64,000 nt of DNA from Promethearchaeota archaeon (GTDB lineage Archaea > Asgardarchaeota > Lokiarchaeia > Sigyniarchaeales > SOKP01). The stretch spans positions 64,001-128,000 of the forward strand of contig JBHLNS010000003.1 in assembly GCA_048941285.1 (NCBI GenBank), written 5' to 3'. Shown piece by piece: positions 2,841 through 11,728 of this stretch. Below the pieces are notes generated by a model. That model was not told the DNA's origin. It searched no databases and was given only the letters and a program-made list of their open reading frames with translations. The first letter of the stretch is position 1, and each line of letters opens with the position of its first letter. A program made the translations under genes and the position numbers.

Positions 2841-3797
2841 ATGAACGAATCAAGAGATTATAAAAAAATACTATTTTGTGGTTTAGAAAATGGTGGAAAA
2901 ACATCAATTTTATTAATATTAGATAAAAAATTTAGTTTACTAACTACTGTTAAACCGACTATAAAAGCAAGAAGAACTATCCACACAAACTCATTATTAG
3001 GCACCACTATTGTCCGGTGGGATTTAGGTGGTCAAAAAGTTTATAGAAAAATATATTTAGGGGATAAGAGTAGGTATTTCACAGAAATGCAATCAATTTT
3101 TTACGTTATTGATATCCAAGCACCTAAAAAATTTGAAGAAGCTATAAATTTTCTTAAAGATATAGTAAACATCACCTCAGATTCGCGCCCCGATAATTTT
3201 CAACTTTTAATTTTACTTCATAAATATGATCCAGACATTAAAAACAATAGTAATATTATAACTAACGTAAAATTTTTAGAAAATGAGATTTCATCAATTA
3301 TTAAAAACATTAAATATTCTATATTGAAAACCTCGATATATGATGAACCAAGTCTGTTAAAGGCTTTTTCTGATGGTGTTTTTTATGCCACTCACAAATC
3401 TGAAATGTTCCAAACTTTATTAAAAGATTACATGGGCAAAACTTATAATAGCTCTACGCTATTATTGGATCAGAATTGTTTTATTATTGCTAGTAGAAGT
3501 ACAAATCAAGCTTATCAAGAAATATGTGAGTCTATAGCGCCAAGGTTAACTCAAGCATTAGAAAAACTAGAAGAATGGGATATAAATACAATAGATATTG
3601 TAACAAACATAGAATTTCCAGAAAAACATTCAGAATTTCAAAAAGAAGGCATTATTTTTCTTAGAAAATTAGATATTGGAGAAACTCGACTATACTTGGT
3701 CGCACTTTGCTTAAATAAGAAGGTCAAAATTAAATCCTATGAATATTTGCCATTATTAGCAGAAAATTTAAAAAATCTTTTAGAGAGTTTTGGTTAA
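2841..3797 (+). CDS. Rag/Arf-like small GTPase with C-terminal roadblock/longin-like domain
   Basis: G1 GLENGGKTS, G2 PTI, G3 WDLGGQ, G4 HKYD, G5 TSIY. HKxD and TSI[WY] are Rag/Gtr-like. ~130-aa alpha/beta C-terminal extension. Confidence 0.8.
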   Translation: MNESRDYKKILFCGLENGGKTSILLILDKKFSLLTTVKPTIKARRTIHTNSLLGTTIVRWDLGGQKVYRKIYLGDKSRYFTEMQSIFYVIDIQAPKKFEEAINFLKDIVNITSDSRPDNFQLLILLHKYDPDIKNNSNIITNVKFLENEISSIIKNIKYSILKTSIYDEPSLLKAFSDGVFYATHKSEMFQTLLKDYMGKTYNSSTLLLDQNCFIIASRSTNQAYQEICESIAPRLTQALEKLEEWDINTIDIVTNIEFPEKHSEFQKEGIIFLRKLDIGETRLYLVALCLNKKVKIKSYEYLPLLAENLKNLLESFG

Positions 3798-4014: not shown

Positions 4015-5208
4015 ATGATTATAAAGTCCAATGTAAACAAAAATTATATAGGCCCTAAAGCACTCTTTGACCCAAATTATGTACCACCTCGCTTATTGTA
4101 CAGAAAAAAAGAGGAGAACTCCTTACATTCAATTTTAAATGATTCAATTTCTGACCAATTTTCACTTAACATTCTTTATCACGGAATGAATGGGATAGGT
4201 AAAAAAGTAATAGTGAACAAAGTTATAAACGATCTTTTAATAGAAAAAGGAGATTGTTTAAAAATCAATAAAATTAGTGTAGATTGTAAAGAAAAAGAAA
4301 TTGATGACTTACTTTTATCATTATTAAATGAATTAACAAACTGTTCTGATGTTAATTTCAATTATCAAACTATTTTAAATTCAAGTCTTTCACATTTATG
4401 GAATACCTTTAAGTTCATTTGTAATAAACTTGATTCTCATCTATTTTTTATATTTAATAATGTTGAATATTTAGATCCTGAAATATTTCAAAAATTCTTA
4501 CTTTTCAGTAAAGAAACAAATATTACTTTAATTTCTACAATAAATAAATTTTTAAAACCAGGTTATATGGACTTACTTTCTGAATTTGATTTTAAGCATA
4601 AATTAAACTTCTTCTCATACCACGAGCTTTATTCTATTCTTAAACAACGAGTTCTTTTAAGTTTTTCAAATGAAATTGATAAAGACTTAATTAGATATAT
4701 AACAGATTTAATATGCGAAGAATATGCCCCTGTTCCAGGAAAAGGCATTGAAATTCTTCGAGATATATATCCAATTATAAAAAATAATAAAGAATACCGG
4801 AATTTTGAATTATTAGAAATTTGTCAAAATGAGTTTGACTCATTTCAAATCTCTGATGAATTTAGCTTAATAAATTATCTTTCGGAAGAGGATATGCTTA
4901 CTGTGATATTCTTAGATAATCTTTCTAATCATTTTATGCATAAGATGAATTATTATATTTCATTTAATAAATTAAGGGAATCCTATGAACTTTCATGCGA
5001 AACATTAGAATATAAAAAAGATATTAATGAGTTTTACTGCCTAATTGAAGAGTTGTTAAATATGGGTATTATTAAACCCTCAAAAAGAACAAAATCCAAA
5101 AATAATGTTAATAACGGTTTTAATAATAGAAATTGTGATTTTTTCTTTACAATAATAAACCCAAAACAGATAAAGGTTATAATTGATACAATTTTTAACC
5201 AATATTAA
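4015..5208 (+). CDS. Cdc6/Orc1-like AAA+ protein with degenerate ATPase motifs
   Basis: N-terminal FDPNYVPPRLLYRKKE typical of Orc1/Cdc6; Walker A HGMNGIGKK (T->K); Walker B FIFNNVE (DE->NN); ILKQR; C-terminal WH-like EELLNMGII. Confidence 0.75.
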   Translation: MIIKSNVNKNYIGPKALFDPNYVPPRLLYRKKEENSLHSILNDSISDQFSLNILYHGMNGIGKKVIVNKVINDLLIEKGDCLKINKISVDCKEKEIDDLLLSLLNELTNCSDVNFNYQTILNSSLSHLWNTFKFICNKLDSHLFFIFNNVEYLDPEIFQKFLLFSKETNITLISTINKFLKPGYMDLLSEFDFKHKLNFFSYHELYSILKQRVLLSFSNEIDKDLIRYITDLICEEYAPVPGKGIEILRDIYPIIKNNKEYRNFELLEICQNEFDSFQISDEFSLINYLSEEDMLTVIFLDNLSNHFMHKMNYYISFNKLRESYELSCETLEYKKDINEFYCLIEELLNMGIIKPSKRTKSKNNVNNGFNNRNCDFFFTIINPKQIKVIIDTIFNQY

Positions 5209-5377: not shown

Positions 5378-8300
5378 TTGACTTACATTAAAAAAATTTC
5401 CATGAGTGGTTTTAAGAGTTTTGGAGATAGAACTGTAACAATTCGACTTTCAAGTGGATTTACATGCATCGTCGGCCCAAATGGGGCAGGTAAGTCTAAT
5501 ATTATTGATGCTCTTTGTTTTGCATTAGGCCGGTTAAGCAAAAAAACAATGAGAGCGAAAAGTCTTGAGGACCTGATTTTCGCAGGATCCAGAGGAAAAA
5601 ATCCCTCTCAAAGAGCATCTGTTACGTTATATTTTGATAATTCTGAGAACGTATTTCCAGGAGGCACAAGTGATTTTGAGATTACACGAACGATTAAGAT
5701 AGGAGGCGGTGGTGGTTATAAAATGAATGGAAAAAAGGCTACGCGCCAACAAATTCTTAACGCTTTAGCGGCAGCTAATATTGATCCAGATGGGAGCAAT
5801 CAATTTGTCCTTCAAGGAAAAATTGTAGAATTAACTCATATGAATGCAGAAGAACGTAGAAAATTTATTGAAGAATTAATTGGACTTCAAAAATATGACG
5901 AAATGAAAGATGCTACCTTAAAAGAACTAGAAAAAGCAGAAAGAGATTTAGGACAATTTGAAGCGATCTTTAAGGAAGTTTCTGCTCAGTTAAAAAAAGT
6001 TGAAAAGGAGAAAAATGATGCTTTGGCTTGGAAAGAATTAGATGAGCAAATTAATTTTTTAAATTCTCAATTAATTGCATTAAAAATTTCAATATTACGA
6101 CAAGAAGAAGAAGATCTGGAAAGAAAAATCGAAAATTCTTTAAAAATTATTGAAGAATTGCAAGAAAAGATTAATAGACAGGAAGATGTCTTAAAACAAG
6201 AATCACTTGTTATGGATAATATTCAGAAAACAATTTCAGAGAAAGAAAAAGAGAGAGAGGAGATTGCAGAAAATATCACTCAAATAAAAACTCAGATTTC
6301 ATCAAGTGAGACTACTCTTAATTTAGCGCAAAAATCAATTGAAAAATTAGTAAATGAAATTGAAACTTTAGAAAGTAAACAAATGAAACTTGAGGAAGGT
6401 CAAACCTTTGATTCATTAATTGAAAACGTTTCAAATGAAATCTTAGAATATGAGAATCATATCGAAGAAACTAAGAAAGAAATTGAAAAACGGCAGCAAA
6501 ACCAAGCTGAATTAGAACTTCAAATTAAAAATACTGAGGATGAAAATTCTCTTTTTAAAGCCGATATTTCCAAAATACAACAAAATGTTTCGTCTAATAA
6601 TGCTCAGGTCAAGATGCTCAAAGGAACTATAAAAAAAAATGAAGAAAAGAAACAAAAATTAGAAGTTGAGTTAGAGAAATTGAAAAGGGATGCAGAAAGT
6701 ATTGATGAAGCCATCGAAGCCGCCAAAAAGGAAGAAGCAGATATTAGAACTCGTATTAATGATTTAAATACTAAAATCTCAAAAGAAAACCAAAATCAAA
6801 AAGACTTAGAGAACGATATAAGTAGTCTTCAAGCAGACAAGAATCAATTAAATTCAAAATTAACAGATTTTCAAGCTTCTTTATCCTCTTTAAACACAGA
6901 AATTAAAATGAATCAAGGGACTATCCAAGAACTAAATGAAAAGAAAATTTCTATCAAGAAGAAAATTACTGATTTAAGCAAAGGTAGAGATGCTGAAAAG
7001 GCTGTAAAAGAATTACTAAAAGATAATGAGGGAATTAATAAAGATTTAAGTGAATTAAAAGCGAAATTGAAGCAAGAAAACTCAAACTATAGAAAAAATG
7101 AGCACGATTTAGAATTAATGAATATGAAGAAATATTCATTCGAATCAGAAATCAATGATAACAATGCAAAGATTGATAATATCAATACTGAACTAAAAAT
7201 TCTTTCAAAAGAATTAAAAAAATTGGATCGAGAAAAAAATAATATAGAATTGCAAGTTGACTCTTTAAGTAAAACGCTCTCAACGACAACAAGTGAATCC
7301 GAAAAATCTCAATTAAAAAAAGAAAATATTCAAAGAAGATTACAGGATCTTTCTGAAGAAAGAGAAAATTTAGTTAAGAAAATCGAGATTTCTGAAGAAG
7401 AATATGATAAGAATACAAAAGATATCACAGGAATTCTCCAAATTTTAAATATGCTCACTCAAAATATTAACATTTCGGTAGAGTCGATTAAAAGTAATAT
7501 CCAACAGTCAAATGCAGAAGCTATTGAATCCTCCGCAGAAGATTTCAAAAAATTTATTCTAGATATAATTGATATTATGAAATCAGTTGAGGATATTGGT
7601 ACAGATGAAGAAAAACCCACTGAAATGACCAGTATGCTTAGTTCTATCATGCAAACTCTAAAATTATTTACAGATAATGCCGATGATACAATTAATCAAC
7701 TAATTGAAAGAGTCAAAGAGTCTGCTGACGTTGAAGTTCAATCGTCAACAAATACATTTGATAATTTTGTTCAAGACTTAATGGAAATTCTTGAAAATGT
7801 ATATCTCTCCTTAAGGAAATTGACTATGTCTAAAAGTCAAGAATTATATAAACAATTAGAAGAGATTTCAGCAAGCATTAAATCTCAAACAGATGAATTC
7901 AATAAAAATGAACAACTATTAACTGAAACCAGAATTCAAGAGAAGCATTTTTCTGAAAATCTTTCATCCCATAATAAAAGACTTGAAGAAATTAATAAAA
8001 GAAATACTGAATTAAATCAAAGAATTAAAAAAGCAGAAGACGAAATAAATGAAAGAAGGGATATTATTAATAATCGGCAATTAGAAGTCAATAACTTGGA
8101 TTCCGAGATTAGCAAATTAAAAGAACTTAAGGATACTTTTTGGGATAACATATCTAAAATCCAAGATGATATTGATAGAAAGCAAAAGGACTTAGAAATT
8201 TTAAGAGAAAAGCTTCAAGAATTACATGGTATTCAGAATTTATTTGATAATATCGTAGAAATTGATGCTAATATAGAAAAATTAAATAGTTTTATTGAAG

Positions 8301-9829
8301 AAAAGAAAAACATAATATTAAACACTGAAGAGAGCATTAAAAATATTCAAGTTGATCAAAATTCAATCCAAAATAGCATAAATGAACATCTTATTAAAAA
8401 AGAAAAATTTTGGGGAATAACTGAGAATTTACGAAAACAGATAGATGTTGAAAATAAAAGCCTTGAAGAAACTATGGATCGTCTAAGAGCACTTGAAAAT
8501 GTGATGAGGATAATCACATCTATTGAAGATATTAAAAAAGAGAATATAGATGCAACTAATCGAATTAAAACTTGTCAAGATGATATAGAAAATCTTAATT
8601 CCCAAGTTCAAGAAATTCAAAAAAATGTGGATCAAAAACAGCTGGTTATAAACTCCTTAAGAGATGAAAAATCTCAAGAATTAGAATCCCAAAAAGCAGC
8701 TCAGAAAAAATTAAATAAACTGAATAAAGATTTACAGAGATCTCAAGGTAAACTAAATGAATTAAATAAAAACAAGGAGAGAGAACAAAAGATTCTTGGG
8801 TTGAATCAGGATATAAAAGACACTGAAGAACAAATTGAATCAATAACAAAAGAGTTAGAAGTTTTTAAAGAAGATTTAACTAATGAAAATTTGAAGAAAG
8901 ATGAAAAACAAAAAGAGATTGATAAGTTTGTACAAGAAAAGGATGAATCATGGAAAAAGCAAAAACAATATCAGAAAGTTATAACTGATTTAAAATCTGA
9001 TCTCTCCATGGAAAATTCAAAAATAAACAATTATGAATCTAAAAAGATTATGTGTACTGACCAGATAGAAACCTTATTTCAACGTTCTAAAGAATATGGC
9101 TCATTACCACCTGTAACTGGTGATCTTGTTGAAGCAGAATTGCAATCAGATATCGTAGAATTAACAAAAAAAAAGAAGGCTCTTGAACCAGTGAATTTAA
9201 AAGCAATTCAACAATATGACGCAGTTAAAGAAAGATTTGATGAGATAGATATGAGGCGTCAAACAATTCAAAGAGAAAGAAAGTCGATTCTTGATGCAAT
9301 AGATAAAATTGAATTAGAAAAAACTCGAACTTTTATGAAAGCTTATCATGAGATTAATAGGGAATTCTCAAGGATTTTTCAAAAGTTATCTCCAGGAGGT
9401 TCTGCAAAGATGATTTTAGATAGACCAGACAAACCTTTTGAGGGAGGCATTTCTATCGAAGCAAGACCCAGAGGTAAAAAAATTAGCTCACTAGAAATTT
9501 TAAGTGGTGGCGAAAAAACATTAGTTGCGTTATCTTTCATTTTTGCGGTTCAAGAATTTTATCCTGCTCCATTTTATGTGATGGATGAAATCGACGCTGC
9601 TTTAGATGGCCCAAATGTACACCGTGTTTCAATGGTTATTAAGGAATTTGCTTCACAAGCTCAATTTATGGTGATTAGCCATCGTGAGGAAAATATAGTA
9701 AACGCAGATAGAATTTATGGTGTTTCAATGCAACAAAGTGGAATCACTGATATTTTTAGCGTTGACTTAGAAGAAGAAGCTAAGAGACTCCTTGAACTTG
9801 AAGATATAGAACCAACAATTACAGAATAA
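5378..9829 (+). CDS. smc: chromosome segregation protein SMC (long, non-canonical apex)
   Basis: GFKSF, Walker A GPNGAGKSN, Q-loop VLQG, PVNLKA, signature LSGGEKT, Walker B/D-loop MDEIDAALD, QFMVISH; long coiled coils; TTG start with GGAG upstream. Confidence 0.95.
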   Translation: MTYIKKISMSGFKSFGDRTVTIRLSSGFTCIVGPNGAGKSNIIDALCFALGRLSKKTMRAKSLEDLIFAGSRGKNPSQRASVTLYFDNSENVFPGGTSDFEITRTIKIGGGGGYKMNGKKATRQQILNALAAANIDPDGSNQFVLQGKIVELTHMNAEERRKFIEELIGLQKYDEMKDATLKELEKAERDLGQFEAIFKEVSAQLKKVEKEKNDALAWKELDEQINFLNSQLIALKISILRQEEEDLERKIENSLKIIEELQEKINRQEDVLKQESLVMDNIQKTISEKEKEREEIAENITQIKTQISSSETTLNLAQKSIEKLVNEIETLESKQMKLEEGQTFDSLIENVSNEILEYENHIEETKKEIEKRQQNQAELELQIKNTEDENSLFKADISKIQQNVSSNNAQVKMLKGTIKKNEEKKQKLEVELEKLKRDAESIDEAIEAAKKEEADIRTRINDLNTKISKENQNQKDLENDISSLQADKNQLNSKLTDFQASLSSLNTEIKMNQGTIQELNEKKISIKKKITDLSKGRDAEKAVKELLKDNEGINKDLSELKAKLKQENSNYRKNEHDLELMNMKKYSFESEINDNNAKIDNINTELKILSKELKKLDREKNNIELQVDSLSKTLSTTTSESEKSQLKKENIQRRLQDLSEERENLVKKIEISEEEYDKNTKDITGILQILNMLTQNINISVESIKSNIQQSNAEAIESSAEDFKKFILDIIDIMKSVEDIGTDEEKPTEMTSMLSSIMQTLKLFTDNADDTINQLIERVKESADVEVQSSTNTFDNFVQDLMEILENVYLSLRKLTMSKSQELYKQLEEISASIKSQTDEFNKNEQLLTETRIQEKHFSENLSSHNKRLEEINKRNTELNQRIKKAEDEINERRDIINNRQLEVNNLDSEISKLKELKDTFWDNISKIQDDIDRKQKDLEILREKLQELHGIQNLFDNIVEIDANIEKLNSFIEEKKNIILNTEESIKNIQVDQNSIQNSINEHLIKKEKFWGITENLRKQIDVENKSLEETMDRLRALENVMRIITSIEDIKKENIDATNRIKTCQDDIENLNSQVQEIQKNVDQKQLVINSLRDEKSQELESQKAAQKKLNKLNKDLQRSQGKLNELNKNKEREQKILGLNQDIKDTEEQIESITKELEVFKEDLTNENLKKDEKQKEIDKFVQEKDESWKKQKQYQKVITDLKSDLSMENSKINNYESKKIMCTDQIETLFQRSKEYGSLPPVTGDLVEAELQSDIVELTKKKKALEPVNLKAIQQYDAVKERFDEIDMRRQTIQRERKSILDAIDKIELEKTRTFMKAYHEINREFSRIFQKLSPGGSAKMILDRPDKPFEGGISIEARPRGKKISSLEILSGGEKTLVALSFIFAVQEFYPAPFYVMDEIDAALDGPNVHRVSMVIKEFASQAQFMVISHREENIVNADRIYGVSMQQSGITDIFSVDLEEEAKRLLELEDIEPTITE

Positions 9830-9857: not shown

Positions 9858-10859
9858 ATTTCAGAAAAAGAAATAGATTCTACTAAAGAATATAATTTTA
9901 AAGAATGGACTGTTAAAGATCTCAGAGAATTTGCTTCGAAAAATAATATAAAAATACCTATCAAGTCTAAGAAAATAGAAATAATTGACTTACTCCAAAA
10001 GGTTGTGTCACATCCCGAGTTTATCGATAGATCTCAAGAAGTTAAAGAATTAGAAGAAGAGCTTGTTGCTGGATTTGATGATGAGGAAGATCTTGCATTA
10101 TTGAGAAAAGAAAAACTTGAATTGAAATTCTGGCAAAAGCCACCGTTTTCTAGTTTATTAGACTCGGAAATTGCAAAAGAATCTGAAATTGCTTTTTATG
10201 ATTTAGCAAAATTAGTTGATGAATTTTTTGATCAAATGCTCCACGAAGAATTAATAAATTATAAAATTTCTGGAATTGCGCTTAAAACTTCAGCAACTTT
10301 ACATCATTATAAAATATCTAGCATAATTAGAGAGGAAGAACAAATTCAAAAAAGAGAAGAATTAGAGAAATTCAGACAAGCACACAGTAGGACTATTCCA
10401 AAAGCATTGCCTCAACCAATTCAGCCAAAAATGCAAATAGCTACAAAAGATGAATTGTTTGATGCGATGAGATCTGCTATTATAGAAGTAATGCAGAATA
10501 AAGAAAAATTAAGAAGGAGACGCATGAGAAAAGAAGAACTAAAACAACACAGAATTCAATTGAAATCTAAAGCACAACTCCCTAAAGAACTTTTAAAACA
10601 CATAAGTGGAAGAGAACAAACGATAGAAGAATTGCATGATTCATGGTTTAATCGAATTAAAGCTACTATTAATCTAAATAATAAAGAAACTACTTTTTAT
10701 GAGTTAGCAAATATTATAAAAAGTGAGGAAAAAAGCGATATTGGGCGGAAATTTTCTTTTGTCCGTATGTTTTTAGCATTAATGTTCCTTTCTACAGGGA
10801 ATAAGTTAACTTTATCTCAAGATGAAGATTTTCAAGATTTTAATGTCAATATTAGATAA
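9858..10859 (+). CDS. scpA: ScpA kleisin, probably with N-terminal SAP/HeH-like extension (track start 10005; frame open from 9852)
   Basis: Directly downstream of smc. Kleisin N-domain DLAKLVDEF...ISGIALKTSATL..K; C-terminal WH FVRMFLALMFL...QDEDFQD. In-frame upstream ATT 9858 with GGTGA at 9847-9851. Confidence 0.8.
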   Translation: MSEKEIDSTKEYNFKEWTVKDLREFASKNNIKIPIKSKKIEIIDLLQKVVSHPEFIDRSQEVKELEEELVAGFDDEEDLALLRKEKLELKFWQKPPFSSLLDSEIAKESEIAFYDLAKLVDEFFDQMLHEELINYKISGIALKTSATLHHYKISSIIREEEQIQKREELEKFRQAHSRTIPKALPQPIQPKMQIATKDELFDAMRSAIIEVMQNKEKLRRRRMRKEELKQHRIQLKSKAQLPKELLKHISGREQTIEELHDSWFNRIKATINLNNKETTFYELANIIKSEEKSDIGRKFSFVRMFLALMFLSTGNKLTLSQDEDFQDFNVNIR

Positions 10860-10900: not shown

Positions 10901-11728
10901 TTGGAAGAAAATAATGAAAATGATATTAAAGAAAATTCAGAAGAAGACTTAGAAAAATTAGAAGAAATCGACTTAACTGAAGATTTAAGTTTAGAATCAG
11001 AAAATCTATTGACAGAAGATTTTGAGGAAGATCAAGATATTGGAAATGATTTACAAACCGATCTTGATGATAATTCCTCCGAGACAACTATTCTTGATGA
11101 GGAATCATTAAAGAACCAAGTAAGGATTTTCCATCGAAATTTGATTGAAGCTTCTTTGTATGCTGCTGGAAGTCCATTAACTATTGAAGAAATCTCAACA
11201 AAATTGGAAATTCCTAAGAAAGAAGTGGAAGAATTAGTAAATGAAGTAGCTTTTGATTACTTAGACCGCACTACTGCTCTTGTCATTGCACAAATTGGAG
11301 AAAGATATCAAATGCAAATTAAACCAGAATATACAGAAAAAGTTTCTAAATTTGCTAAAGGAGGAGCAATAGCAGAAAGGTATTTGAGAACTTTAACGAT
11401 TATCGCTTTGAAACAACCAGTCTTAAAATCAATGGTTATTAAATTGAGAGGTACTGGAGCATATGAACATATAAAGTATCTTATAGATAATGGTTTTGTA
11501 AATGCTGTAAAAAAAGGAAGATCCCATGAATTAACTACCACCGATAAGTACGCAGATATGTTTGGGCTACCAAAAGATAAAACTGAATTGAAACGTGCTA
11601 TGGTCACACAATTAGGAATTGAAGAAATATCAAGTAGTGAAACTCCAGACGATAATGAATTTTCTGATGATTCAGAACCCTTTAGCGAAACTGAATCAAT
11701 AAATGAAGATGAAGAAGGAGAAGAATAA
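10901..11728 (+). CDS. scpB: SMC-Scp complex subunit ScpB with acidic N- and C-terminal tails
   Basis: IEASLYAAGSPLT, LRTLTIIALKQPV, LRG, TTTDKYADMFGL; follows scpA. Confidence 0.9.
   Translation: MEENNENDIKENSEEDLEKLEEIDLTEDLSLESENLLTEDFEEDQDIGNDLQTDLDDNSSETTILDEESLKNQVRIFHRNLIEASLYAAGSPLTIEEISTKLEIPKKEVEELVNEVAFDYLDRTTALVIAQIGERYQMQIKPEYTEKVSKFAKGGAIAERYLRTLTIIALKQPVLKSMVIKLRGTGAYEHIKYLIDNGFVNAVKKGRSHELTTTDKYADMFGLPKDKTELKRAMVTQLGIEEISSSETPDDNEFSDDSEPFSETESINEDEEGEE

What the first reader, a model, noticed from the sequence alone, without database searches (positions are those of the whole stretch)
7430..7801. SMC without a recognisable hinge: duplicated all-helical apex at the midpoint
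Seen: the head motifs are canonical condensin-type and scpA/scpB follow. The centre has neither the Gly-rich alpha/beta hinge signature (GX6GX3GG) nor a Rad50 CxxC hook. Instead two 53-aa segments align without gaps: res 685-737 GILQILNMLTQNINISVESIKSNIQQSNAEAIESSAEDFKKFILDIIDIMKSV and res 756-808 SIMQTLKLFTDNADDTINQLIERVKESADVEVQSSTNTFDNFVQDLMEILENV (shared I.Q.L...T.N, S......SS...F..F..D...I...V). An acidic loop joins them at the protein midpoint (~742 of 1483). Known: Smc-ScpAB dimerises through the hinge. Inference: a different helical-bundle dimerisation module, i.e. a distinct condensin architecture. I cannot confirm that it is unreported.
Basis: partly seen in the sequence, partly recalled or inferred. 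Interest (0 to 1): 0.85.

Follow-up and report, generated by a model that had tools for sequence, protein, structure and literature searches.

The report
Hinge-less long-armed SMC of Lokiarchaeia
This Asgard archaeon's only condensin-type SMC protein has lost the usual hinge domain and instead carries a strongly conserved, internally duplicated helical hairpin at the tip of unusually long arms, so it is a natural test of whether an SMC complex needs a hinge.

Summary
The ORF at 5378-9829 (1483 aa) is a true SMC with canonical heads, followed by a kleisin-like gene and ScpB. No hinge is detectable by Pfam, PDB sequence search or profile-profile comparison with Asgard hinges. AlphaFold2 predicts residues 600-900 as one all-helical hairpin that turns at 742-746.

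The two 53-aa segments are true repeats (hhalign 97.6%, E 3e-12; arm controls at most 4%). The tip is as conserved as the ATPase heads.

It is not a chimera. Orthologues of about 1475-1510 aa occur in 131 of 154 genomes of four families labelled as one Asgard order, and in 2 of 246 others.

The long SMCs form one clade nested among canonical Asgard SMCs. Six of 28 relatives keep a canonical hinge-bearing SMC as well. This genome does not.

The arms are about 1.5 times the normal length, apparently through paired tandem duplications.

The claim that the tip is the dimerisation module is a reasonable inference but is not shown.

I found no published description. I rate it a new variant of a known kind, interest about 0.65.

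The parts
5378..9829 (+). SMC gene, 1483 aa, TTG start; long hinge-less paralogue
   Evidence: ORF; translation. Pfam SMC_N 141 bits over residues 3-1457. TIGR02168 609 bits (cut-off 567) and TIGR02169 632 bits (cut-off 729).
5378..5887 (+). N-terminal half of the ATPase head (about residues 1-170; Walker A GPNGAGKS, Q-loop)
   Evidence: Mean column entropy 0.34 across 106 relatives.
5888..7429 (+). N-terminal arm strand (about residues 171-684), with ~98-aa tandem repeats
   Evidence: Aligns with the arm of the canonical paralogue up to that protein's hinge start. Entropy 1.09. Repeats at offsets -98 and -195 score 57-72 and 37-42, against other offsets up to 41.
7430..7588 (+). Helical repeat unit 1 (residues 685-737)
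   Evidence: Entropy 0.41. Helix in the AF2 model.
7589..7642 (+). Acidic, variable linker (residues 738-755) holding the predicted apex turn at 742-746
   Evidence: Entropy 1.91. 33% D+E. The break between the two long helices falls here in the AF2 model.
7643..7801 (+). Helical repeat unit 2 (residues 756-808)
   Evidence: Entropy 0.68. Helix with a kink at 767.
7802..7867 (+). Highly conserved helical segment after unit 2 (residues 809-830)
   Evidence: Entropy 0.35 and identity 0.94.
7868..9187 (+). C-terminal arm strand (about residues 831-1270), with ~90-aa repeats
   Evidence: Entropy 1.26 for 831-1300. hhalign 95.5-96.2% between successive 90-aa windows. Residues 1130 onwards align with the canonical paralogue.
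9188..9829 (+). C-terminal half of the head (signature LSGGEK, Walker B DEIDAALD, H-loop) and the stop codon
   Evidence: Entropy 0.29 for 1301-1483.
10005..10859 (+). Kleisin (divergent ScpA-like), 284 aa
   Evidence: Pfam SMC_ScpA E 0.064, below cut-off. The G144 orthologue gives ScpA 0.0018 and Rad21_Rec8 0.0059. A profile of 13 orthologues against the PDB: all 4 hits at E <= 1 are kleisin fragments, N-terminal matching N-terminal and C-terminal matching C-terminal (E 0.02-0.32). Present downstream in 52 of 61 loci with room.
10901..11728 (+). ScpB (kite), 275 aa with an ~80-aa N-terminal extension
   Evidence: Pfam SMC_ScpB 9e-34 over residues 81-230. TIGR00281 96 bits, over cut-off. It is the only ScpB match in the genome. 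Present in 46 of 55 loci with room.

Best explanation
The gene encodes a lineage-specific paralogue of the archaeal condensin-type Smc. It works with its own kleisin and ScpB. Shown: the alpha/beta hinge has been replaced by an all-helical apex. The apex is made of two homologous ~55-residue helical units, one on each strand of the antiparallel coiled coil, joined by a short acidic turn. The arms have been lengthened to roughly 490-550 residues per strand, against about 340 in canonical Smc. The apex is under purifying selection as strong as that on the ATPase heads. The paralogue arose from a canonical Asgard Smc. It is confined to four families that the genome tool labels as one order, whose records are titled Promethearchaeota or Promethearchaeia (= Lokiarchaeia). 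In this genome, and in 22 of the 28 in-order genomes examined, it is the only condensin-type Smc found. Inferred: two hairpin tips associate, most simply as a four-helix bundle, to hold the Smc homodimer together at the end away from the heads. That would do the job of the hinge, as a Rad50 zinc hook can do in an engineered Bacillus Smc. The complex would then act as a normal DNA-entrapping or loop-extruding Smc-kleisin-kite ring or rod with a larger lumen. The apex is acidic and poor in Lys/Arg, so it probably does not bind DNA as hinges do.
For: The protein is an SMC: SMC_N and TIGR02168/02169 matches; 31-33% identity to the canonical paralogue over heads and proximal arms; adjacent kleisin and ScpB. 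There is no hinge: no PF06470 match at E <= 1; none among the precomputed Pfam domains of the 120 listed relatives or in 6 distant relatives; the PDB sequence search gives only ApoA-I, tropomyosin and chemoreceptor; the centre profile against an 18-sequence Asgard hinge profile gives probability 3%. The AF2 model of residues 600-900 (41-row alignment, mean pLDDT 84.7, 71-83 across most of the module, 60 at the apex linker) is entirely helical with the turn at 742-746. Its best PDB matches are long helical hairpins: chemoreceptor 2ch7 (TM 0.46), the MukB elbow, Smc arm fragments and Rad50. The duplication is real. Conservation: entropy is 0.41, 0.68 and 0.35 in the module, against 1.09-1.26 in the arms and 0.29-0.34 in the heads. 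The module has extra hydrophobic surface: 36-40% large hydrophobic residues against 26-28% in the arms, 21-26% charged against 39%, and hydrophobic residues at 12-13 of 37-38 non-a/d heptad positions against 1-7 in four arm windows. Distribution: 26 of 151 genomes, then 133 of 400 Asgard genomes with a profile, almost all in f1, f2, f28 and f29. The long clade has 100% SH-aLRT support and lies inside the canonical Asgard SMCs. A canonical paralogue co-exists in 6 of 28 in-order genomes and was not found in the others, including this one. A hinge can be functionally replaced by another tip dimeriser: a figure legend of PMC5344682 describes a functional Smc(Zn hook) chimera (passages seen).
Against: No result here shows dimerisation at the tip. 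AF2 models a monomer only, and as a plain hairpin rather than a bundle. The heptad analysis used one fixed register per segment, so stutters could inflate the count of 'extra' hydrophobic positions. The position of the long clade within the canonical SMCs rests on a weak branch (82% SH-aLRT) and a long stem of 1.53. TIGR02169 scores below its cut-off. The kleisin assignment rests on weak E-values. In 9 of 61 loci with room the kleisin is not next to the SMC. No expression data were obtained.
Confidence: 0.6

Rival explanations
1. The apex does not join two Smc molecules. The protein is held as a dimer only by ATP-engaged heads and the kleisin. The conserved helical tip instead docks another partner or folds back on the arm or head to regulate the ATPase.
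For: Nothing here shows tip dimerisation. The module also occurs, twice in tandem, in a non-SMC protein family of the sister family f2, so it can work as a free-standing interaction module. The tip is conserved on polar as well as hydrophobic positions.
Against: To my knowledge (recalled), all characterised SMC, MukB, Rad50 and RecN proteins are joined at the end away from the heads. No partner gene co-occurs with the long Smc in f1 apart from the kleisin, ScpB and an upstream Orc1/Cdc6-like gene. The non-SMC module protein was not found in this genome. AF2 predicts no fold-back.
Confidence: 0.25
2. The long Smc is a neo-functionalised paralogue, for example for defence or repair in the manner of Wadjet, Lamassu or Rad50, and not the housekeeping chromosome condensin.
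For: It arose by duplication and sits on a long branch (stem 1.53). In 6 of 28 in-order genomes the canonical Smc is kept beside it.
Against: It is the only condensin-type Smc and ScpB found in this genome (94% complete) and in every examined genome of genera g1, g2, g4 and g5 that had a match. It is nearly universal in the order. It lies next to an Orc1/Cdc6-like gene in 68 of 68 loci, not in a variable island. No nuclease or defence partner was seen.
Confidence: 0.1
3. A normal hinge is present but too divergent for the profiles, or the gene is an assembly chimera.
For: Pfam can miss divergent hinges. The SMC5/6-like paralogue of the same genome scores only 24.9-30 bits.
Against: The model is all-helical (mean pLDDT 84.7), with 3 Gly and 1 Pro in about 400 central residues. 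Profile-profile probability against Asgard hinges is 3%. The same architecture is seen in 80 fetched loci and 133 genomes, including closed single-contig genomes. Contigs from independent runs cover parts of the module with no insertions, deletions or joints reported.
Confidence: 0.03

Closest known systems
Canonical archaeal/bacterial Smc-ScpAB (Pfam SMC_N + SMC_hinge; TIGR02168/TIGR02169)
   Same: ATPase head motifs, antiparallel coiled-coil arms, and kleisin and ScpB genes downstream. It lies phylogenetically inside the canonical Asgard SMCs.
   Different: It has no hinge domain. The apex is a duplicated helical hairpin. The arms are about 1.4-1.6 times longer, giving 1483 aa against about 1185-1234 aa in other Asgard families.
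Engineered B. subtilis Smc with its hinge replaced by the Pyrococcus Rad50 zinc hook (Burmann et al. 2017, PMC5344682; passages and figure legends seen)
   Same: An Smc whose hinge is replaced by a small coiled-coil-tip dimeriser can still function. That paper also describes periodic limits on arm length.
   Different: This one is natural, not engineered. It has no CxxC and so no zinc hook. Whether its tip dimerises is not shown.
Zinc-hook SMC relatives: Rad50/SbcC and the archaea-specific ASRP/ClsN/Sph family (PMC9389158; passages seen)
   Same: Head, long coiled coil, and a non-hinge apex.
   Different: No CxxC motif. Rad50 and ASRP models score far below their cut-offs (106 against 1087; 152 against 300), while the SMC models score above 600 bits. 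It also has kleisin and kite partners.
'Hinge-less' SMC homologues of marine Actinobacteria (PMC12153180, 2025; passages seen)
   Same: Natural SMC-family proteins with a head and coiled coil but no hinge.
   Different: Those are bacterial and come from ocean gene catalogues, and the passages I saw describe no conserved duplicated tip module or partner genes. I did not compare sequences because none were in hand. The present family is archaeal, confined to four families labelled one order, and sits in an Smc-kleisin-ScpB operon.
RecN and the chemoreceptor cytoplasmic hairpin (all-helical tip or bundle association; the RecN part is recalled, not tested)
   Same: These are the mechanistic analogy. 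Helical hairpins associate into four-helix bundles. The chemoreceptor 2ch7 is the best structural match of the model (TM 0.46).
   Different: There is no sequence relationship, and the match reflects only the generic long-hairpin shape.

Membership tests
Prokaryotic Smc of Smc-ScpAB | Split ABC-type ATPase head (Walker A, Q-loop, signature, Walker B, H-loop) | tested here: met
   The motifs are readable. SMC_N scores 141 bits over residues 3-1457.
Prokaryotic Smc of Smc-ScpAB | Curated equivalog scores (NCBIfam) | tested here: inconclusive
   TIGR02168 scores 609 against a cut-off of 567 (passes). TIGR02169, the archaeal type, scores 632 against 729 (fails).
Prokaryotic Smc of Smc-ScpAB | Central alpha/beta hinge dimerisation domain (PF06470, Gly-rich motifs) | tested here: not met
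   No match at E <= 1. No GX6GX3GG. The AF2 model is all-helical. hhalign against Asgard hinges gives 3%. The PDB search finds no hinge.
Prokaryotic Smc of Smc-ScpAB | Long intramolecular antiparallel coiled coil | tested here: met
   The AF2 hairpin for residues 600-900 matches Smc and MukB arm fragments. The arms align with those of the canonical paralogue.
Prokaryotic Smc of Smc-ScpAB | Kleisin (ScpA) and kite (ScpB) partners | tested here: met
   ScpB 9e-34. The kleisin is weak but consistent. Synteny holds in 52 of 61 and 46 of 55 loci.
Prokaryotic Smc of Smc-ScpAB | Descent from canonical SMC rather than from SMC5/6-like or Rad50 proteins | tested here: met
   In a tree of 31 rows the long clade has 100% SH-aLRT support and lies inside the canonical Asgard SMCs when rooted on the SMC5/6-like paralogues. 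The exact sister group is weak, at 82%.
Rad50 / SbcC / ASRP (zinc-hook proteins) | CxxC zinc hook at the coiled-coil apex | tested here: not met
   There is no CxxC. The 4 Cys lie at residues 30, 47, 1066 and 1226.
Rad50 / SbcC / ASRP (zinc-hook proteins) | Family profile score | tested here: not met
   Rad50 models score 40-106 bits against cut-offs of 700-1087. ASRP scores 152 against 300.
MukB-type hinge | Small alpha/beta hinge fold | tested here: not met
   The model is all-helical. No MukB hinge appears in the PDB sequence search at E <= 10. Only the MukB elbow, which is coiled coil, matches structurally.
Tip-dimerising helical hairpin (functional class, not a family) | Homodimer formed through the apex | not testable with these tools
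Solution or structural experiments are needed.

The most novel reading that the evidence does not exclude
A natural Smc-kleisin-ScpB complex that has given up the hinge altogether. It closes its ring through a new four-helix-bundle tip built from a duplicated helix, on arms about 1.5 times the usual length. It is the sole condensin in most members of the Asgard order whose records are titled Promethearchaeota/Promethearchaeia (closed genomes in the sister family also carry it). If so, the hinge's proposed roles in DNA binding and gating are dispensable for a housekeeping SMC. A related free-standing module protein in the sister family may dock on the same tip.
Probability: 0.4. Interest if true: 0.8.

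Novelty: new variant of a known kind. Interest (0 to 1): 0.65.

Why it matters
The hinge is regarded as a defining and mechanistically important part of SMC complexes. It is credited with dimerisation, DNA binding and a possible DNA gate. Here a whole archaeal order carries an Smc-ScpAB whose hinge is replaced by a conserved helical tip, and in most of its genera no canonical Smc was found. The order belongs to the Asgard archaea, which the papers read here treat as the closest prokaryotic relatives of eukaryotes, and it includes closed genomes. This is a natural experiment on which hinge functions are essential. It also bears on how arm length is tuned, because the arms appear to have grown by matched ~98-aa and ~90-aa duplications on the two strands. 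It adds a third kind of SMC complex to the Asgard repertoire discussed in work on the origin of eukaryotic cohesin, condensin and SMC5/6. It is directly testable with a tip fragment, with chimeras in Bacillus, or in cultured relatives.

Tried and rejected
Homodimer prediction of residues 640-860 (two copies, 41-row alignment) gave no verdict: scores 0.00 and 0.01 against a mark of 0.42. It is evidence neither way.

The protein atlas search with residues 670-835 gave only unnamed clusters at 0.88-0.89. The Rad50_zn_hook and SMC_hinge clusters at 0.76-0.78 are in the chance range, so I did not use them.

I ran an AF2 model of the N-terminal 461 residues of the non-SMC module protein (7-row alignment, pLDDT 83.4). 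The aim was to see how four units pack in one chain. It gave four long helices, but I could not inspect coordinates, and Foldseek matches were poor (TM <= 0.24). Nothing can be concluded about packing.

PF24161, which appeared in the precomputed domain lists, is a CCDC39 coiled-coil model. It has no match in this genome and I dismissed it as coiled-coil noise.

Sequencing runs: no RNA holder was listed, so nothing can be said on expression. The contigs of four DNA runs are short pieces that cover parts of the stretch without indels or joints. No piece spans the whole stretch.

The weak hit of the unit HMM to a 1003-aa ORF on contig C66 (E 0.012) had no BLASTP similarity to the module protein and was dropped.

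I considered and rejected four readings: a divergent hinge, an assembly chimera, a Rad50/ASRP protein, and an SMC5/6-like paralogue (that one is a different gene, on contig C24).

Literature searches (plus passages) found no description of a hinge-less Asgard Smc. The supplementary text and tables of bioRxiv 10.1101/2024.01.07.573240, which mention additional Asgard SMC-complex duplications, could bear on novelty and I could not see them.
Full report
WHAT IS THERE. The finding lies inside a 1483-aa ORF (window 5378..9829, + strand, TTG start). Pfam finds SMC_N across residues 3-1457 (141 bits) and the usual P-loop models, but no SMC_hinge even at E <= 1. NCBIfam scores it as chromosome-segregation SMC: TIGR02168 gives 609 bits against a cut-off of 567, and TIGR02169 gives 632 against 729. 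The Rad50, ASRP, RecN and SbcC models score far below their cut-offs. Two genes follow on the same strand. The first is a 284-aa protein with a sub-threshold ScpA match (E 0.064). The second is a 275-aa ScpB (9e-34; TIGR00281 over cut-off). A profile of 13 orthologues of the 284-aa protein finds four PDB sequences at E <= 1, and all four are kleisin fragments. ScpA N-terminal domain matches the N-terminus; Scc1 and ScpA C-terminal domains match the C-terminus (E 0.02-0.32). I therefore call it a divergent kleisin.

THE OBSERVATION. Residues 685-737 and 756-808 align without gaps: 13 of 53 identical, BLOSUM62 score 77, and 0 of 20,000 shuffles as high. On raw score two charged, repetitive arm segments do better. 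With profiles from 106 full-length relatives the two units match at hhalign probability 97.6%, E 3e-12, over 58 columns in register. Against 24 arm windows neither unit exceeds probability 4%. The same duplicated pattern holds in relatives that are only 20-40% identical. There is no CxxC and no GX6GX3GG, and residues 560-960 hold only 3 Gly.

STRUCTURE. AlphaFold2 was run on residues 600-900 with a 41-row alignment. Mean pLDDT is 84.7, with 71-83 across most of the module and a dip to 60 at the apex linker. The model is entirely helical. One unbroken helix runs 601-741, the turn is at 742-746, and the chain returns as helices 747-766, 768-816 and 819-899. Foldseek's best PDB matches are long helical hairpins: a chemoreceptor cytoplasmic domain (TM 0.46), the MukB elbow, Smc arm fragments, Rad50 and Smc5/6 arms. 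No hinge appears there, in a PDB sequence search, or in a profile-profile comparison with 18 canonical Asgard hinges (probability 3%, coiled-coil columns only). So unit 1 sits on the outgoing strand and unit 2 on the returning strand. The two homologous helices pack antiparallel at the very tip.

IS THE TIP FUNCTIONAL? Across 106 full-length relatives, column entropy is 0.41 (unit 1), 0.68 (unit 2) and 0.35 (residues 809-830). That compares with 0.29-0.34 in the heads, 1.09-1.26 in the arms and 1.91 in the linker. The module has more large hydrophobic residues than the arms (36-40% against 26-28%) and fewer charged ones (21-26% against 39%). It is net acidic, about -16 over residues 685-808. 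It carries hydrophobic residues at 12-13 of 37-38 non-a/d heptad positions, against 1-7 in four arm windows (one fixed register was used, so this is indicative only). A two-helix coil cannot bury all of that. This is the main, indirect, argument that more helices pack there.

NOT A CHIMERA; DISTRIBUTION. A word-indexed search with residues 640-860 found 170 proteins. Nearly all full-length ones are 1474-1487 aa, 65-91% identical in the centre, and none of the 120 listed carries PF06470. An exhaustive HMMER scan of 1.84 billion representatives found only 31 clusters at E <= 0.001. Six distant ones that I scanned lack a hinge. In GTDB species genomes, 88 stretches encode a relative. In a sample of 151 Asgard genomes the module occurs in 26: f1 23 of 25, f2 2 of 2, this genome, and 0 of 123 in 25 other families. 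With a 7-row profile and 400 genomes it occurs in 133. These are f1 113 of 134, f2 14 of 14, f28 1 of 1 and f29 2 of 4, plus this genome. All four families are labelled 'same order'. Only 2 of the other 246 genomes match, and one of those has three near-identical fragments, which looks like mis-binning. Hits include closed single-contig genomes. Contigs of four independent runs cover parts of the module without indels or joints.

PARALOGY. This genome (94% complete) has one PF06470 match, a weak one (30 bits), in a 1153-aa SMC on contig C24. That gene is a distinct, SMC5/6-like paralogue. The genome has one ScpB, the one in the window, and no other full SMC. Across 151 Asgard genomes, other families have a ~1185-1234-aa SMC with a strong hinge (E about 1e-31 to 1e-39). 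Within the order such a gene was found in 6 of 28 genomes: genera g3 and g6, and G089 of f2. It was not found in g1, g2, g4 or g5. There only the weak SMC5/6-like hinge appears. Where both exist, each has its own partners. The long SMC is followed by a kleisin and ScpB, and the canonical one by its own short ScpB. In a quick maximum-likelihood tree (31 rows, 1180 columns, rooted on the SMC5/6-like genes) the 11 long SMCs form one clade (100% SH-aLRT) on a long stem (1.53). The clade sits inside the canonical Asgard SMCs. It is sister, with weak support (82%), to a group that includes the order's own canonical SMCs. The simplest reading is a duplication of the whole Smc-kleisin-ScpB set near the base of the order, then hinge replacement in one copy, then loss of the canonical copy in several genera. 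This matches published evidence that Asgard genomes carry more than one SMC complex (bioRxiv 10.1101/2024.01.07.573240 and PMC8665677; passages seen). Neither main text mentions a hinge-less form.

ARMS. BLASTP aligns residues 3-571 with the canonical paralogue up to that protein's hinge start, and residues 1130-1473 with its C-terminal third (31-33% identity). Each strand is about 490 residues without the module, or about 550 with it, against about 340 canonically (344 in B. subtilis, PMC5344682). By inference from the helical rise, that is about 70-80 nm. The N-strand shows ~98-aa tandem repeats: hhalign scores are 57-72 at offset -98 and 37-42 at -195, while other arm offsets also reach about 40. 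The C-strand shows ~90-aa repeats. The most basal member of the clade (1296 aa; frames of 1307-1349 aa in family f29) lacks 97 residues of the N-strand and 90 of the C-strand relative to this protein. This fits arm growth by matched duplications on both strands.

MECHANISM. Shown: a housekeeping-type Smc with kleisin and kite, no hinge, a conserved duplicated helical tip and extended arms. Inferred, at about 55-60%: two tips associate, most simply as a four-helix bundle, and so replace the hinge as the constitutive dimer contact. A hinge can be swapped for an unrelated tip dimeriser, as the functional Smc(zinc hook) chimera of PMC5344682 shows (figure legend seen). The acidic tip argues against hinge-like DNA binding. 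The main rival, at about 25%, is that the tip binds something else or folds back, and that dimerisation relies on the heads and kleisin.

NOVELTY. Known already: multiple SMC complexes in Asgard archaea; zinc-hook SMC relatives (PMC9389158); 'hinge-less' SMC homologues in marine Actinobacteria (PMC12153180); and the engineered hook chimera. Five full-text searches found no description of this Lokiarchaeial hinge-less Smc-ScpAB. I class it as a new variant of a known kind.

Noticed in passing
window 4015-5208 (+): The 397-aa gene directly upstream of the SMC is a divergent Orc1/Cdc6 homologue. Its PDB match is 2qby_A, E 4.6e-4 over residues 18-305, and it has weak AAA_22 and Cdc6_C matches. It precedes the long SMC in 68 of 68 related loci with room, so a replication origin may lie nearby.
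   Followed up: partly
L007:5178-8255 (-) (G089 contig C26); also P0141, P0143, P0144, P0148, P0150: A non-SMC protein family of about 925-1180 aa, seen only in sister family f2, carries the same helical module twice in tandem (four units). After the modules come a beta-rich region, a short coiled coil and a Lys-rich histone-H1-like tail. No SMC head is present. It could be a partner that docks on the SMC tip, but this is untested.
   Followed up: partly
window 6455-7340 and 7955-9140 (about residues 360-653 and 860-1255): The arms contain ~98-aa (N-strand) and ~90-aa (C-strand) tandem repeats. The basal 1296-aa relative P0139 lacks one unit on each strand, which suggests arm lengthening by paired duplications.
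   Followed up: partly
L002:5754-9215 (+) = G000 contig C24: The genome's second SMC (1153 aa) has a weak hinge (24.9 bits) and is followed by 218-aa and 171-aa genes with no significant Pfam match. This is probably the SMC5/6-related complex described for Asgard archaea. An ArsR-type regulator lies upstream.
   Followed up: partly
window 2841-3797 (+): A Gtr1/RagA-family small GTPase (Pfam 4.7e-23), a eukaryote-like signature protein typical of Asgard genomes.
   Followed up: no
L064; G167 and G183: One locus with a 70%-identical module and the matching kleisin and ScpB sits on a contig filed under an actinobacterial MAG ('Candidatus Nanopelagicaceae'). Two genomes of other Asgard families (G167, with three fragments, and G183) also hold the gene. 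These look like mis-binned contigs rather than transfer.
   Followed up: no
window 10901-11728 (+): The ScpB linked to the long SMC has an N-terminal extension. Its ScpB domain starts at residue 81 here, 170 in G144 and 133 in G089. The ScpB next to the canonical SMC is only 189-196 aa.
   Followed up: no
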